Assembly: GCF_030013205.1 (NCBI RefSeq)
Contig: NZ_CP122648.1
Reading direction: 5' to 3' (one strand)
Length of the DNA: 64,000 bases
Source of the DNA: Escherichia coli
GTDB taxonomy: Bacteria > Pseudomonadota > Gammaproteobacteria > Enterobacterales > Enterobacteriaceae
Positions within the stretch are counted from its first letter, which is position 1. Every line of letters begins with the position of its first letter. Positions 1,935 through 30,770 of this stretch are shown in pieces. Both the position numbers and the translations under genes were made by a program. The notes beneath the pieces are model-generated. The model ran no database searches. It saw only the letters and a program-made list of their open reading frames with translations, and was not told the DNA's origin.

Positions 1935-1943
1935 TTGAATCTG

Positions 1944-3035
1944 ATGCGTTTTCTGCGCCGACCAATATCGCTGCGCCAACGGCTGATATTGACCATTGGG
2001 GCCATTTTGTTGGTGTTTGAGCTGATCAGCGTCTTCTGGCTATGGCATGAAAGTACCGAGCAGATTCAGCTGTTTGAGCAGGCGCTACGCGACAATCGCA
2101 ACAACGATCGCCACATCATGCGTGAGATCCGCGAGGCGGTCGCCAGCCTGATCGTCCCCGGCGTCTTTATGGTCAGCCTGACGCTATTTATCTGCTATCA
2201 GGCGGTACGCCGCATCACCCGCCCGCTGGCGGAGCTGCAAAAAGAGCTGGAAGCGCGCACCGCCGACAACTTAACGCCCATTGCCATTCACAGCGCCACC
2301 CTCGAAATCGAAGCGGTGGTTTCGGCGTTAAACGATCTGGTCAGTCGCCTGACCAACACGCTGGATAACGAAAGGTTGTTTACCGCTGACGTCGCGCACG
2401 AACTGCGAACGCCACTGGCGGGGGTGCGTTTGCATCTGGAACTGCTGGCGAAAACGCATCACATTGATGTAGCACCGTTAGTGGCACGGCTTGATCAGAT
2501 GATGGAGAGCGTCTCCCAGCTGCTGCAACTGGCGCGTGCCGGACAGTCATTTTCTTCCGGTAATTATCAACATGTAAAACTGCTGGAAGATGTCATTCTC
2601 CCCTCGTATGACGAACTCAGTACCATGCTCGACCAGCGACAGCAAACCCTGCTATTGCCAGAGAGCGCCGCCGACATCACCGTTCAGGGTGATGCAACCC
2701 TGCTGCGGATGTTATTGCGAAACCTGGTAGAAAACGCCCATCGTTACAGCCCGCAAGGCAGCAACATTATGATTAAGCTGCAAGAAGATGGCGGAGCGGT
2801 CATGGCTGTTGAAGATGAAGGACCGGGTATTGATGAGAGTAAATGCGGGGAGTTGAGTAAAGCATTTGTACGTATGGACAGCCGTTATGGCGGGATTGGT
2901 CTGGGGTTAAGTATTGTCAGCCGCATTACACAGTTGCATCACGGGCAGTTTTTCCTGCAAAACCGGCAAGAGACTTCCGGCACGCGGGCCTGGGTACGGC
3001 TGAAGAAAGATCAGTACGTGGCAAACCAGATATAA
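1944..3035 (+). CDS. basS: Sensor histidine kinase BasS/PmrB
   Basis: ORF ending at TAA 3033-3035 with H-box (ADVAHELRTPLAG) and ATPase motifs; ATG at 1944 gives 363 aa; an upstream in-frame TTG at 1935 is an alternative start. Confidence 0.9.
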   Translation: MRFLRRPISLRQRLILTIGAILLVFELISVFWLWHESTEQIQLFEQALRDNRNNDRHIMREIREAVASLIVPGVFMVSLTLFICYQAVRRITRPLAELQKELEARTADNLTPIAIHSATLEIEAVVSALNDLVSRLTNTLDNERLFTADVAHELRTPLAGVRLHLELLAKTHHIDVAPLVARLDQMMESVSQLLQLARAGQSFSSGNYQHVKLLEDVILPSYDELSTMLDQRQQTLLLPESAADITVQGDATLLRMLLRNLVENAHRYSPQGSNIMIKLQEDGGAVMAVEDEGPGIDESKCGELSKAFVRMDSRYGGIGLGLSIVSRITQLHHGQFFLQNRQETSGTRAWVRLKKDQYVANQI

Positions 3036-3100
3036 AGAAAGCTGCTGACCACCAGCACGCTGAACACGGTAGTTAAACTTTCATAAACACGGTTTTTCAT
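3011..3100 (-). CDS. pmrR: Small membrane protein PmrR (29 aa), antisense-overlapping basS 3' end
   Basis: Reverse complement of 3011-3100 translates MKNRVYESLTTVFSVLVVSSFLYIWFATY*; GGAGG 8 nt upstream of ATG; not in the supplied ORF track (too short); overlaps last 25 nt of basS on opposite strand. Confidence 0.8.
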   Translation of the reverse strand: MKNRVYESLTTVFSVLVVSSFLYIWFATY

Positions 3101-3104
3101 TGCA

Positions 3105-3130
3105 CTCTCCTCCGTTAACCTGGAGGAGAG
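3105..3130 (-). other. Perfect 9-bp-stem hairpin (ctctcctcc-N8-ggaggagag) containing the pmrR Shine-Dalgarno
   Basis: Inverted repeat read directly from sequence; 3' arm on minus strand includes GGAGG located 8 nt before pmrR ATG; no U-tract follows on either strand. Confidence 0.6.
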
Positions 3131-3144
3131 TATGCGCGTCAGAG

Positions 3145-3161
3145 ATTAAGTGAACCTTAAG
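3145..3161 (-). promoter_or_regulatory. PmrA-box-like direct repeat (CTTAAG-N5-CTTAAT on minus strand) upstream of pmrR
   Basis: Hexamer direct repeat separated by 5 bp matches YTTAAK-N5-YTTAAK PmrA/BasR consensus; lies between proP stop and pmrR start. Confidence 0.55.
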
Positions 3162-3170
3162 ACTTCAATT

Positions 3171-3199
3171 GGCCTGATAAGACAGCGTCACATCAGGCC
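3171..3199. repeat. REP-like palindromic element downstream of proP
   Basis: ggcctgataagacagcgtcacatcaggcc, typical REP palindrome (GCCTGATAAGAC...CATCAGGC). Confidence 0.5.
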
Positions 3200-3211
3200 A
3201 TCCGTTTCAGC

Positions 3212-4714
3212 TTATTCATCAATTCGCGGATGTTGCTGCACCAGGCGAGTACGTTTCGCCTGCAAATCGGCAATCTCGTGGTCAATATCATCGATTTTCT
3301 GCTCGATATTATCGTAATGCTCGACGAGAATTTCCTTCGCTTCCTGTATATCTGACGCCGCCGGTGTCGCACCTTTCAACGGACGATTCGCCGTCTCTTT
3401 CATGGTTACGCCGGTGATTAAACCAACCACCGCCACTACCATCAGGTAATAGGCAGGCATCATCAAATTCTGCGAGCTTTCGACCAGCCAGGCCGCCAGC
3501 GTTGGCGTCAGACCGGCAACCAGCACCGAAATATTAAATGCCGCCGCCAGCGCGCTGTAACGGATATGCGTCGGGAACATCGCTGGCAAGGTAGAGGCCA
3601 TAACGCCCGTAAAGCAGTTAAGGATCACCGCCAGCATCAGTAACCCGGCAAAAATCAGGCCGATGACGTTACTGTTAATCAGAATAAACGCCGGGATCGC
3701 CAACACAAACAGTGCAACACTACCAAGTAGCACAAACGGACGACGGCCAAAACGGTCACTCAGCAAGCCCATCACCGGCTGGACAAACAGCATACCGATC
3801 ATAATGGCGATAATAATCAGCACCCCGTGGTCTTCGGAGTAATGCAGGTTATGCGACAAATAACTCGGCATATAGGTCAGCAACATGTAGTAAGTCACGT
3901 TGGTGGCAATTACCAGACCAATACATGTCAACAGGCTGCGCCAGTATTTAGTGGCAATCTCTTTAAACGAGACTTTCGGGCCATCCTGCAAACCTTCGCG
4001 GTCGCCCTGCTCCAGTTTATCAACATGCTGCTGGAACGCCGGAGTCTCTTCCAGCGCATGGCGCAGGTAAAGCCCGATAATCCCTAACGGCAGAGCAATA
4101 AAGAACGGAATACGCCAGCCCCAGTCGAGGAAGTTCGCTTCGCCGACAATGGTCGAAATTAACACCACCACGCCCGCACCCAGCACAAACCCGGCAATAG
4201 AACCGAAGTCCAGCCAGCTGCCCATAAAGCCACGTTTACGGTCAGGGGAGTATTCCGCAACAAATATCGACGCCCCGGTATATTCACCGCCGACCGAGAA
4301 ACCTTGTGCCATCTTACAGATCAACAGCAGAATCGGTGCCCAAATACCAATCGTGTCGTAGGACGGTATTAAGCCAATACAGAACGTACTGATCGACATA
4401 ATCACAATAGTGATAGCGAGGATCTTCTGGCGACCATATTTATCGCCCAACATACCAAAGAAGAGTCCACCAAGCGGTCGAATCAGAAAGGGAACGGAGA
4501 AAGTGGCAAGTGCAGCAACCATCTGCACGCTGGGGTCAGCCCCCGGGAAAAAAACTTTACCTAATGCGTAAGCAACAAAACCATAAACACCAAAATCGAA
4601 CCATTCCATTGCATTACCCAGTGATGCTGCGGTAATGGCTTTACGCAGTTTACCGTCATCAATAATAGTGACATCACGAAGGGTAATTGGTTTTACTTTT
4701 TTCCTTTTCAGCAT
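3212..4714 (-). CDS. proP: Proline/glycine betaine:H+ symporter ProP (MFS)
   Basis: ORF 3212-4747 minus; protein matches ProP including C-terminal coiled-coil (...DIDHEIADLQAKRTRLVQQHPRIDE); start placed at internal ATG 4714 (MLKRKKVKPITL...) giving 500 aa. Confidence 0.93.
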   Translation of the reverse strand: MLKRKKVKPITLRDVTIIDDGKLRKAITAASLGNAMEWFDFGVYGFVAYALGKVFFPGADPSVQMVAALATFSVPFLIRPLGGLFFGMLGDKYGRQKILAITIVIMSISTFCIGLIPSYDTIGIWAPILLLICKMAQGFSVGGEYTGASIFVAEYSPDRKRGFMGSWLDFGSIAGFVLGAGVVVLISTIVGEANFLDWGWRIPFFIALPLGIIGLYLRHALEETPAFQQHVDKLEQGDREGLQDGPKVSFKEIATKYWRSLLTCIGLVIATNVTYYMLLTYMPSYLSHNLHYSEDHGVLIIIAIMIGMLFVQPVMGLLSDRFGRRPFVLLGSVALFVLAIPAFILINSNVIGLIFAGLLMLAVILNCFTGVMASTLPAMFPTHIRYSALAAAFNISVLVAGLTPTLAAWLVESSQNLMMPAYYLMVVAVVGLITGVTMKETANRPLKGATPAASDIQEAKEILVEHYDNIEQKIDDIDHEIADLQAKRTRLVQQHPRIDE

Positions 4715-30713: not shown

Positions 30714-30733
30714 TGCCACTCACTTTTGGGGGC

Positions 30734-30770
30734 CCTTAAGCCCCCAAAAGCATTTATTTAAAAAATATAT
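30734..30770 (+). terminator. Rho-independent terminator downstream of yjcS
   Basis: cttttgggggc-cctta-agcccccaaaag hairpin followed by catttattt. Confidence 0.7.

What the first reader, a model, noticed from the sequence alone, without database searches (positions are those of the whole stretch)
3011..3161. pmrR overlaps basS antisense; its RBS sits inside a perfect 9-bp hairpin next to a PmrA-box-like repeat
A 29-codon membrane-peptide gene (pmrR) is encoded on the minus strand overlapping the last 25 nt of basS. Upstream of it on the minus strand is a CTTAAG-N5-CTTAAT direct repeat (3145-3161) matching the PmrA/BasR box. Between them is a perfect inverted repeat ctctcctcc/ggaggagag (3105-3130) whose 3' arm contains the pmrR Shine-Dalgarno. 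The hairpin has no U-tract on either strand, so it is not a classical terminator. It could act as a translational gate on pmrR or as a processing or stability element at the end of the proP transcript.
Basis: partly seen in the sequence, partly recalled or inferred. Interest (0 to 1): 0.4.

Follow-up and report, generated by a model that had tools for sequence, protein, structure and literature searches.

The report
Promoter-embedded hairpin hiding pmrR ribosome site
A conserved RNA hairpin in front of the small E. coli gene pmrR buries its ribosome-binding site only in transcripts that run in from the upstream gene, because one arm lies inside pmrR's own promoter; it also marks the mapped end of the upstream proP mRNA, so it looks like an insulator rather than a switch on the pmrR mRNA.

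Summary
The window is E. coli: pmrR (3100..3011, minus) overlaps basS by 25 nt. The PmrA box is at 3161..3145. The inverted repeat is a perfect 10-bp stem (3104-3113 / 3122-3131) with no U-tract.

All parts except the hairpin's role are already known. pmrR is annotated, the box has been deleted experimentally, and the whole stretch is Rfam family STnc630, whose consensus structure contains this hairpin.

New here:
- In 51 distinct enterobacterial sequences the layout is fixed: PmrA box, 10 nt, -10 hexamer NANACT, then a hairpin. Its 5' arm is the end of the -10 plus the discriminator. Its 3' arm is the Shine-Dalgarno sequence.
- The arms covary.
- The PmrA-driven mRNA should therefore start at about 3121 and lack the 5' arm, leaving the ribosome site free.
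- Transcripts entering from the upstream gene (proP, or uvrB in other genera) contain both arms. There is almost never a terminator in between.
- Two published 3'-end maps place an RNA end 4-6 nt after the hairpin.

Best reading: an IS10-like fold-back insulator that also caps the upstream mRNA. The pmrR start site is inferred, not mapped.

The parts
1935..3035 (+). basS/pmrB coding sequence (sensor kinase), convergent with pmrR
   Evidence: ORF list; RefSeq annotation
3011..3100 (-). pmrR coding sequence, 29 aa membrane peptide that inhibits LpxT; overlaps basS by 25 nt
   Evidence: PmrR-like 28-30 aa ORFs sit at the same place in 54 of 80 enterobacterial loci. Translation is supported by Ribo-RET in PMC11429745.
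3104..3113 (-). 3' arm of the hairpin in the pmrR sense (GGAGGAGAGU), which is the pmrR Shine-Dalgarno sequence
   Evidence: Alignment A1 columns 51-62.
3114..3121 (-). 8-nt loop (AGGUUAAC in the pmrR sense); its first base, A3121, is the predicted PmrA-dependent transcription start (plausible range 3123..3119)
   Evidence: Inferred from promoter geometry. A purine, mostly A, lies 6-8 nt after the hexamer in the 51 distinct sequences. Not mapped experimentally here.
3122..3131 (-). 5' arm of the hairpin in the pmrR sense (ACUCUCCUCC), an anti-Shine-Dalgarno sequence encoded by the end of the -10 hexamer plus the discriminator
3129..3134 (-). -10 hexamer CATACT of the PmrA-dependent pmrR promoter
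   Evidence: It starts exactly 10 nt after the box. In A1, columns 30, 32 and 34 are A in 48/51, A in 50/51 and T in 51/51. The eptA and arnB promoters have the same box-N10-hexamer layout. The pmra-box replaces the -35 element (PMC10570014).
3145..3161 (-). PmrA/BasR box CTTAAG-N5-CTTAAT
   Evidence: Deleting window 3145..3166 abolishes PmrR function in E. coli (PMC8129183).
3170..3200 (.). REP-like imperfect palindrome between proP and the PmrA box
   Evidence: Inverted repeat I1, 14-nt arms, 86% complementary. No RNA 3' end is reported here in the two data sets searched.
3212..4714 (-). proP coding sequence, the co-oriented upstream gene whose transcripts run into the pmrR promoter
   Evidence: coordinate map to MG1655 4330502..4332004
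3098..3100 (-). Published RNA 3' ends (MG1655 4332116-4332118, plus strand there), 4-6 nt after the hairpin
   Evidence: Term-seq, Adams 2021 supplementary file 1. TRS, PMC10687069 supplementary file 4. Coordinate map.
2911..2911 (-). Published 'primary' 3' end of the pmrR transcript (MG1655 4332305), 100 nt past the stop codon and antisense to basS
   Evidence: TRS supplementary files 4 and 6
2748..2748 (-). Published Rho-dependent termination region for pmrR-sense transcription (MG1655 4332468), antisense to basS
   Evidence: Adams 2021 supplementary file 2: Rho score 8.58, p = 2.7e-37
3004..3169 (-). Full-length match to Rfam RF02052 'STnc630' (181 bits, gathering score 55). The model spans the PmrA box, the hairpin and the whole pmrR ORF.
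   Evidence: Origin of the name in Sittka 2008, supplementary file 4.

Best explanation
The inverted repeat is an RNA hairpin that can form only in pmrR-sense transcripts entering from the upstream gene (proP in E. coli). It does two things there.

Its 5' arm (ACUCUCCUCC) is encoded by the last 3 bp of the -10 hexamer plus the discriminator of the PmrA-activated pmrR promoter. Its 3' arm is the pmrR Shine-Dalgarno sequence.

(a) No terminator lies between the upstream gene and the promoter, so upstream transcripts run through it. They fold the roughly -19 to -23 kcal/mol hairpin, which buries the ribosome site, so they do not make PmrR. The untranslated RNA is then ended by Rho further on (inferred), and 3' exonucleases trim it back to the hairpin (inferred). 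That gives the stable proP mRNA end seen 4-6 nt after the stem.

(b) When phosphorylated PmrA binds the box, RNA polymerase starts at about 3121, just after the 5' arm (inferred). The 21-nt leader is unstructured, the ribosome site is free, and PmrR is made.

Translation of pmrR is therefore tied to its own promoter. This is the same logic as the fold-back protection of IS10 transposase against outside promoters.

Shown: the structure, its conservation and covariation, the fixed promoter geometry, and (from published data) the RNA 3' end. Inferred: the start site, the translational silence of read-through RNA, and the Rho-plus-trimming route.
For: Structure
- The stem is a perfect 10 bp; the RNA folds at -22.7 kcal/mol, z = -3.85.
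- RNA starting at 3122 folds at only -2.4 kcal/mol with the Shine-Dalgarno sequence open.

Conservation
- 54 of 80 enterobacterial loci carry a PmrR-like ORF antisense to the pmrB 3' end.
- All 51 distinct upstream sequences show the same layout: box, about 10 nt, NANACT, hairpin, ATG.
- On alignment A1, 81.8% of cells pair, against 74.5% in shuffles (0 of 500 reach it) and 37-50% when partners are slid.
- The covariation score is 0.278 against 0.152 (0 of 500). Pair 35-56 occurs as AU 17, CG 15, GC 6 and GU 6.

Strand
- In the 8 core pairs, G-U wobbles in the pmrR sense outnumber A-C by 34 to 8.
- The hairpin is more stable in the pmrR sense in 34 of 51 sequences.

Ribosome site
- The median unpaired probability of the Shine-Dalgarno region is 0.09 in the read-through form and 0.48 in the short form. 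It is below 0.2 in 43 of 51 read-through forms.

Promoter geometry
- eptA/pmrC in the same loci, and E. coli arnB (box + 10 nt + TAAAAT), have the same spacing.
- The pmra-box replaces the -35 element (PMC10570014).

Read-through
- The upstream gene is co-oriented in every locus but one (L037, none found within 600 nt). It is proP only in Escherichia and C. amalonaticus, UvrB-like in most other genera, and something else in a few.
- Its stop codon lies 0-300 nt from the box, and a terminator-like hairpin lies between them in only 3 loci.

Published data
- RNA 3' ends fall at 4332116-8; the TRS authors attribute them to the upstream gene.
- There is Rho-dependent termination downstream, at 4332468.
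- Deleting only window 3145..3166 (box plus 5 nt) abolishes PmrR function, although proP, the -10, the hairpin and the ORF remain.
- PmrR made without stress is harmful (PMC11429745).
Against: - The pmrR transcription start was not available in any data I could read. Kato 2012 and Thomason 2015 are not held, and the Cappable-seq tables are cut. The exclusion of the 5' arm therefore rests on promoter geometry.
- The G-U over A-C excess could partly reflect the constraint that the 3' arm must remain a Shine-Dalgarno sequence, rather than strand-specific pairing.
- The statistics are not corrected for phylogeny.
- A hairpin that simply caps the upstream mRNA would also be selected, and in species with 0-50 nt of spacer it has nowhere else to sit.
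- No data show that read-through RNA is untranslated.
- The loss of function in the box deletion could just reflect low proP read-through, or the FRT scar.
- Most read-through RNA ends at the hairpin anyway, so there may be little RNA left to silence.
Confidence: 0.55

Rival explanations
1. The hairpin is only a 3'-end element of the upstream gene's mRNA: a non-canonical terminator or an exonuclease block. Its overlap with the pmrR ribosome site has no regulatory meaning.
For: - RNA 3' ends lie 4-6 nt after the stem in two data sets and are attributed to the upstream gene.
- There is almost never another terminator between the upstream gene and pmrR.
- Rho-dependent termination occurs downstream, so trimming back to a stable hairpin is plausible.
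Against: - A cap could use any sequence. Yet in 51 distinct sequences with at least four different upstream genes, the 3' arm is always the Shine-Dalgarno sequence and the 5' arm always the discriminator. The element travels with pmrR, not with the upstream gene.
- The eptA/pmrC promoter shows a weaker form of the same design, aimed at its start codon.
- There is no U-tract in any species.
Confidence: 0.22
2. The structure works in the opposite-strand RNA, as a stabiliser or terminator in the 3' UTR of the eptA-basRS (pmrCAB) mRNA.
For: - In E. coli the hairpin is as stable in the basS sense (-18.9 against -19.4 kcal/mol).
- Xu 2021 found that a pmrB clone cut at +86 (window 3121, in the loop) gives 315-fold less pmrB mRNA and no colistin resistance. 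Cutting at +103 (3138, whole hairpin) partly restores resistance.
Against: - The same study found no change in pmrB mRNA half-life.
- The core wobble pairs would be C-A mismatches in the basS sense, 34 to 8.
- The pmrR sense is more stable in 34 of 51 sequences.
- No basS-strand 3' end is listed in either 3'-end data set, although basS is weakly expressed.
- There is no U-tract on that strand.
- eptA, which has no convergent partner visible, shows a similar promoter-to-start-codon pairing.
Confidence: 0.1
3. The hairpin lies inside the PmrA-driven pmrR mRNA and gates its translation, to be opened by a factor, by temperature or by a ribosome standby site.
For: The ribosome site is fully paired when both arms are present. 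PmrR levels appear tightly balanced.
Against: - The 5' arm overlaps the -10 hexamer, which sits at the same box + 10 nt position as in eptA and arnB. A polymerase bound there cannot transcribe it.
- A perfect 10-bp G+C-rich stem is far too stable for a thermometer.
Confidence: 0.08
4. The palindrome is a DNA operator for a dimeric protein that sits over the pmrR start site.
For: It is a perfect palindrome spanning the predicted start site.
Against: Across genera the arm sequences change while complementarity is kept, including G-U wobbles. That is the signature of RNA pairing, not of a protein site.
Confidence: 0.03

Closest known systems
IS10/Tn10 fold-back inhibition (Davis, Simons & Kleckner 1985, Cell 43:379) and the related protection of IS50 and IS200 against impinging transcription
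   Same: A sequence upstream of the element's own start site pairs with the translation initiation region. Transcripts from outside promoters are therefore not translated, while transcripts from the resident promoter lack the upstream arm. IS10 is cited as an example of sequestered translation signals in PMC13181058. IS200's protection against impinging transcription and its buried Shine-Dalgarno sequence are described in PMC4513863. The mechanistic details for IS10 and IS50 come from my own knowledge.
   Different: This is a chromosomal regulon gene for a 29-aa peptide, not a transposase. The upstream arm is built from the -10/discriminator of an activator-dependent promoter. The same hairpin also marks the mapped 3' end of the upstream mRNA. 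In IS200 the sequestering stem lies inside the tnpA 5' UTR.
Rfam RF02052 STnc630 ('Enterobacterial sRNA')
   Same: It is the same locus. The window matches the whole model at 181 bits, and the curated consensus structure contains this hairpin.
   Different: The family is filed as an sRNA. It was predicted from 27 Hfq co-IP reads in the Salmonella proP/basS spacer, and the Northern blot was 'nd'. [quoted passage not shown] It is therefore a promoter plus a small-protein mRNA, not a defined sRNA.
Protective stem-loops at the 3' ends of Rho-terminated mRNAs, and REP elements
   Same: A stable stem without a U-tract, an RNA 3' end a few nt downstream, and Rho-dependent termination further on.
   Different: Such stems are not tied to the ribosome site and core promoter of the next gene. 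Here the REP-like element 40 nt upstream is not where the end maps.
Class II PmrA-activated promoters (pbgP/arnB, pmrC/eptA, ugd)
   Same: The box YTTAAK-N5-YTTAAK replaces the -35 element, and a -10 hexamer follows 10 nt later.
   Different: In pmrR, and more weakly in pmrC, the -10/discriminator is also complementary to the gene's translation start region. arnB shows no such pairing by eye.
Excludon / convergent overlapping transcription (pmrR-basS)
   Same: pmrR-basS is listed among the convergent excludons of E. coli (PMC12288877). pmrR-sense RNA extends at least 100 nt antisense into basS.
   Different: The excludon concept concerns the overlap of the transcripts, not the hairpin at the pmrR 5' side.

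Membership tests
PmrA-activated class II promoter | Direct repeat YTTAAK-N5-YTTAAK (pmra-box) | tested here: met
   One exact match at 3161..3145, 0.12 expected. Conserved in all 51 distinct orthologous sequences.
PmrA-activated class II promoter | The box takes the place of the -35 element, with a -10 hexamer at a fixed short distance | tested here: met
   Box + 10 nt + CATACT. A, A and T at hexamer positions 2, 4 and 6 in 48, 50 and 51 of 51 sequences. Same spacing in eptA and arnB. Box overlaps the -35 element per PMC10570014.
PmrA-activated class II promoter | Transcription depends on PmrA | not testable with these tools
   Literature only: deleting the box abolishes PmrR function in a pmrA-constitutive E. 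coli strain.
Intrinsic (Rho-independent) terminator | G+C-rich stem-loop | tested here: met
   10-bp perfect stem, 7 G-C pairs
Intrinsic (Rho-independent) terminator | U-tract directly after the stem | tested here: not met
   The tail is GCAAUGAAAAAC in the pmrR sense and AUGCGCGUCAGA in the basS sense. Not flagged by the scan. No U-tract in any orthologue.
IS10-type fold-back insulation against outside transcription | The 3' arm covers the Shine-Dalgarno sequence or start codon | tested here: met
   The 3' arm is GGAGGAGAG, 4 nt before the ATG. The Shine-Dalgarno region has an unpaired probability of 0.00 in the long form in E. coli and a median of 0.09 over 51 sequences.
IS10-type fold-back insulation against outside transcription | The 5' arm lies upstream of the resident promoter's transcription start | tested here: inconclusive
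   The 5' arm overlaps the -10 hexamer and the discriminator, so geometry says yes. No mapped 5' end could be obtained.
IS10-type fold-back insulation against outside transcription | Transcripts from outside actually cross the element | tested here: met
   Published 3' ends sit just after the hairpin, with Rho-dependent read-through beyond. Almost no terminator lies between the upstream gene and the box.
IS10-type fold-back insulation against outside transcription | Outside transcripts are not translated, while resident-promoter transcripts are | not testable with these tools
   Only indirect evidence: the box deletion leaves proP read-through intact but removes PmrR function.
Rfam RF02052 STnc630 | Covariance-model score above the gathering threshold | tested here: met
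   181.4 bits against 55, model positions 1-166 of 166
Rfam RF02052 STnc630 | Being a discrete non-coding sRNA | tested here: not met
   The match contains the PmrA box, the -10 and the complete translated pmrR ORF. The original Northern blot was 'nd'.
RNA thermometer | Weak, mismatch-containing stem over the Shine-Dalgarno sequence that melts near 37-42 C, located in the gene's own 5' UTR | tested here: not met
   Perfect 10-bp stem, about -19 kcal/mol. The 5' arm is predicted to lie outside the mRNA.

The most novel reading that the evidence does not exclude
Using the core promoter (-10 end plus discriminator) as the anti-ribosome-site arm may be a general design of the pmrCAB-pmrR module, and possibly of other activator-dependent genes that sit directly behind a co-oriented gene with no terminator. 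Translation would then be licensed by promoter choice. The same stem would serve as the 3' cap of the upstream mRNA. A weaker version is visible at the eptA/pmrC promoter, where the -10 'CAT' plus discriminator pairs with the start codon region.
Probability: 0.3. Interest if true: 0.65.

Novelty: new member of a known kind. Interest (0 to 1): 0.45.

Why it matters
PmrR sets whether lipid A carries a diphosphate (LpxT) or phosphoethanolamine (EptA). That choice trades polymyxin resistance against bile resistance, and PmrR is harmful when made at the wrong time.

In every genus examined here the gene sits behind a co-oriented gene, proP or uvrB in most of them, almost never with a terminator. 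A device that keeps PmrR strictly under PmrA control would explain how the module can be dropped behind different genes.

The reading also does three practical things:
[quoted passage not shown] The critical segment, +86 to +103, is exactly the anti-Shine-Dalgarno arm plus the -10.
- It shows that an Rfam 'sRNA' family is really a promoter plus a small-protein mRNA.
- It gives a simple, testable example of promoter-specific translation outside transposons.

Tried and rejected
Direct start-site evidence (all failed)
- Kato 2012 (Mol Cell) is not held under its PMC id or PubMed id.
- Thomason 2015 and Ju 2019 (SEnd-seq) are not held.
- The Cappable-seq supplementary tables are held only in part and show nothing near 43320xx or 43301xx.
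- The Vellappan preprint has no supplements held. Its pmrR reporters gave no low-Mg response.

ProQ
- I looked for a link between ProQ and this proP 3' end and found nothing beyond a remark in Xu 2021.

Readings rejected
- Classical terminator: no U-tract.
- RNA thermometer: the stem is too stable.
- Protein operator: the arms covary instead of being conserved.

Strand assignment
- Across all 12 aligned pairs, wobble counts are ambiguous (49 G-U against 55 A-C). The four outer pairs are constrained by the -10 and are simply unpaired in many genera. Only the 8 core pairs are informative, at 34 against 8.

Terminator-like hairpin inside the pmrR CDS (3057..3043)
- I considered it as the proP terminator, but no 3' end is reported there.
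Full report
WHAT IS THERE

The window is Escherichia coli. The 401 bases around the finding occur in 5408 of 5426 complete genomes, annotated pmrB | pmrR 'LpxT activity modulator PmrR' | proP. They differ from MG1655 at 3 of 406 positions, none in the elements discussed. The coordinate map is: MG1655 coordinate = 4331800 + (3416 - window position).

- basS/pmrB is 1935..3035 on the plus strand.
- pmrR is 3100..3011 on the minus strand, 29 aa, overlapping basS by 25 nt.
- The PmrA box CTTAAGgttcaCTTAAT is at 3161..3145 on the minus strand. It is the only match to YTTAAK-N5-YTTAAK in 64 kb, against 0.12 expected.
- The inverted repeat is one pair longer than reported: 3104-3113 / 3122-3131, 10 bp, perfect, with an 8-nt loop.
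- Such repeats occur at 7 sites in the window, against 0.55 per shuffle.
- Neither strand has a U-tract after the stem, and the terminator scan does not flag it.

WHAT WAS ALREADY KNOWN

- pmrR and its antisense overlap with pmrB are annotated.
- Tian et al. 2021 drew the PmrA box in the E. coli pmrR promoter and deleted it. Their primers show that the deletion is window 3145..3166 only.
- The whole stretch 3169..3004 matches Rfam RF02052 'STnc630' over its full length (181 bits, threshold 55), and the curated consensus structure contains this hairpin.
- STnc630 was predicted by Sittka et al. 2008 from 27 Hfq co-IP reads, against 1 in the control, in the Salmonella proP/basS spacer. The Northern blot was 'nd'.
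- Xu et al. 2021 drew stem-loops in the 'pmrB 3' UTR' and cut at their boundaries.

The hairpin has therefore been seen before, but no role has been assigned to it. The Rfam family is really a promoter plus a small-protein mRNA.

COMPARATIVE ANATOMY

A BasS query returned 80 loci from distinct enterobacterial species. Of these, 54 carry a 28-30 aa PmrR-like ORF antisense at the pmrB 3' end. The genera include Escherichia, Citrobacter, Klebsiella, Raoultella, Kluyvera, Kosakonia, Phytobacter, Pseudocitrobacter, Trabulsiella, Yokenella, Pluralibacter and others.

Every one has the same layout in the pmrR sense: PmrA box, about 10 nt, a hexamer NANACT, a hairpin, then ATG.

The arm sequences differ between genera but stay complementary:
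- E. coli: ACTCTCCTCC / GGAGGAGAGT
- Raoultella: ACACTATCTTCA / TGAGGATAGTGT
- Kosakonia: ACTGCCTTC / GAGGGCAGT
- L049: ACACTCTCCCA / TGGGAGAGTGT

On the 51 distinct sequences (alignment A1), a 12-pair stem gives these figures:

| Measure | Observed | Shuffled | Partners slid |
|---|---|---|---|
| Cells paired | 81.8% | 74.5% (0 of 500 reach it) | 37-50% |
| Covariation score | 0.278 | 0.152 (0 of 500 reach it) | lower |

One pair occurs as AU 17, CG 15, GC 6 and GU 6. The structure is real and under selection. These tests are not corrected for phylogeny.

WHERE THE ARMS SIT

The hexamer has A, A and T at positions 2, 4 and 6 in 48, 50 and 51 of 51 sequences. It starts exactly 10 nt after the box.

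The eptA/pmrC promoter in the same loci has the same spacing (box + 10 nt + NANNAT). So does E. coli arnB (box + 10 nt + TAAAAT).

The pmra-box is known to replace the -35 element (PMC10570014). The hexamer is therefore the -10.

The 5' arm of the hairpin begins inside it, at its last 2-5 bases, and fills the discriminator. A purine, usually A, follows the arm 6-8 nt after the hexamer. This gives a predicted start at window 3121 and a leader of 18-22 nt in all species.

A polymerase bound at this -10 cannot transcribe the 5' arm. The PmrA-driven pmrR mRNA should therefore carry only the 3' arm, which is its Shine-Dalgarno sequence. This step is inferred; I could not obtain a mapped 5' end.

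WHICH RNA FOLDS IT

Only RNA arriving from upstream in the pmrR sense, or the basS-sense RNA, contains both arms.

- In the eight core pairs, G-U wobbles in the pmrR sense outnumber A-C by 34 to 8. A-C would be G-U in the basS sense.
- The hairpin is more stable in the pmrR sense in 34 of 51 sequences.
- This asymmetry could partly come from the need to keep the 3' arm a good Shine-Dalgarno sequence.

The direct evidence comes from published data:
- Term-seq lists a 3' end at MG1655 4332116 on the proP/pmrR strand.
- TRS lists 4332117-4332118.
- These are window 3100-3098, 4-6 nt after the stem.
- The TRS authors state that SEnd-seq shows termination of the upstream gene inside the pmrR CDS.
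- The same Term-seq study reports Rho-dependent termination of this strand at 4332468, inside antisense basS (Rho score 8.58, p = 2.7e-37).
- TRS gives a second end at 4332305, called the primary pmrR end.

So proP transcripts cross the pmrR promoter, fold the hairpin, and end just after it.

READ-THROUGH IS THE RULE

- The upstream gene is co-oriented in every pmrR locus but one (L037, where no ORF was found within 600 nt).
- It is proP only in Escherichia and C. amalonaticus. In most other genera it is a 673-aa UvrB, and elsewhere a Na+/H+ antiporter or a Sel1 protein.
- Its stop codon lies 0-300 nt from the box, often less than 60 nt. A terminator-like hairpin between them was found in only 3 loci.

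The hairpin therefore travels with pmrR, not with proP.

CONSEQUENCE FOR TRANSLATION

| Form | E. coli energy | Shine-Dalgarno unpaired, E. coli | Median unpaired, 51 sequences |
|---|---|---|---|
| Read-through (box to ATG + 30) | -26.3 kcal/mol | 0.00 | 0.09 |
| Short (from predicted start) | -2.4 kcal/mol | 0.84 | 0.48 |

The Shine-Dalgarno sequence is less than 20% open in 43 of 51 read-through forms.

BEST EXPLANATION (confidence 0.55)

The hairpin is an insulator of the IS10 fold-back type. RNA from outside carries both arms and cannot load ribosomes on pmrR. RNA from the PmrA promoter lacks the anti-Shine-Dalgarno arm and is translated. The same stem is the stable 3' end of the upstream mRNA, most likely after Rho termination downstream and exonucleolytic trimming.

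Indirect support:
- The 22-bp box deletion leaves proP, the -10, the hairpin and the ORF intact, yet removes PmrR function.
- PmrR made without stress impairs growth.
- In Xu 2021, the segment that turns a useless pmrB clone (+86 = window 3121) into a partly functional one (+103 = 3138) is exactly the anti-Shine-Dalgarno arm plus the -10. Full function at +126 (3161) coincides with the end of the PmrA box. The effect was on mRNA level, not half-life. This is compatible with the model but not decisive.

RIVALS

- A pure 3' cap for the upstream mRNA (0.22). This fits the 3'-end data. It does not explain why the arms are always the Shine-Dalgarno sequence and the discriminator behind four different upstream genes.
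- A basS-sense 3' UTR element (0.10). This fits the Xu truncations. It does not fit the wobble pattern, the unchanged half-life, or the absence of a mapped end on that strand.
- A gate inside the PmrA-driven mRNA (0.08). This conflicts with the -10 position.
- A protein operator (0.03). This conflicts with the covariation.

COMPARISON AND NOVELTY

The mechanism matches the protection of IS10, and of IS50 and IS200 in related ways, against impinging transcription (details from my own knowledge). It is new in three respects:
- It serves a chromosomal small-protein gene.
- It uses the core promoter of an activator-dependent promoter as the upstream arm.
- It doubles as the neighbour's mRNA end.

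I rate it a new member of a known kind, with interest 0.45. The parts are known, the mechanism has precedent, and the key step (the start site) is still inferred. Even so, the conservation is striking and the model is easy to test.

SIDE OBSERVATION

At the eptA/pmrC promoter of many genera, the -10 'CAT' plus discriminator is complementary to the 5-7 nt before the ATG plus the ATG itself. Examples are CATGACGAG...CTCGTCATG and GCATAGCG...CGCTATGC, with folds of -12 to -18 kcal/mol.

On 50 sequences, 67.1% of cells pair, against 63.1% in shuffles (0 of 500) and 28-48% when slid. The covariation score is 0.199 against 0.151 (2 of 500).

This is weaker than at pmrR, but it is the same design. 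In E. coli a co-oriented gene (adiC) also lies upstream.

Noticed in passing
L007-L060, positions about 50-200 (eptA/pmrC promoter); alignment A2: In many genera the eptA/pmrC promoter repeats the design. The -10 'CAT' plus discriminator is complementary to the bases just before the start codon plus the ATG (for example CATGACGAG...CTCGTCATG). Pairing is 67.1% against 63.1% in shuffles (0 of 500) and 28-48% when slid. The covariation score is 0.199 against 0.151 (2 of 500).
   Followed up: partly
window 3004-3169 (-): Rfam RF02052 'STnc630', filed as an enterobacterial sRNA, is in fact the PmrA box, the -10, the leader and the complete pmrR ORF. It derives from the Salmonella proP/basS spacer, where Hfq co-IP gave 27 reads against 1 in the control and the Northern blot was 'nd'. 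The family probably needs re-curation.
   Followed up: yes
window 3043-3057 (-), tail to 3033: There is a terminator-like hairpin (TGCTGGTGGTCAGCA + GCTTTCTTTA) inside the pmrR coding sequence, which is also part of the Rfam consensus structure. No RNA 3' end is reported there in the two data sets searched.
   Followed up: partly
window 3121, 3138, 3161, 3169, 3211: The truncation points of Xu et al. 2021 (+86, +103, +126, +134, +176 after the pmrB stop) fall on element boundaries: the end of the loop, just past the -10, the 5' end of the PmrA box, the start of the Rfam model, and the base before the proP stop codon. This allows their phenotypes to be re-read in terms of pmrR promoter parts.
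   Followed up: partly
L009-L062 (for example L021:3820-5841): In Klebsiella, Raoultella, Kluyvera, Kosakonia and others, the pmrCAB-pmrR module lies directly after a 673-aa UvrB gene. In several Kosakonia the PmrA box abuts or overlaps the uvrB stop codon (0-nt spacer). Some relatives (L008, L014, L033, L046, L080) have uvrB about 30 nt from pmrB and no pmrR.
   Followed up: partly
L001:3705 and L004:3705 (minus strand): In two Escherichia genomes a base change in the box-to--10 spacer creates an in-frame ATG. This gives a 42-aa extended PmrR ORF that starts upstream of the predicted transcription start, so it is probably not used.
   Followed up: no
window 3170-3200: A REP-like imperfect palindrome lies between proP and the PmrA box. 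Despite its position, the mapped proP-strand 3' end is not here but at the downstream hairpin.
   Followed up: partly
window 30723-30750, 51545-51568, 53098-53121, 56831-56859, 60032-60056, 60091-60117: Six other perfect 10-bp inverted repeats with short loops occur in the window. They are probably terminators and were not examined.
   Followed up: no
window 2748-2911 (-): Published data show that pmrR-sense RNA runs at least 100 nt antisense into basS (3' end at window 2911) and is stopped by Rho at about window 2748. pmrR-basS is listed as a convergent excludon in PMC12288877. Whether this antisense RNA affects basS expression is open.
   Followed up: no
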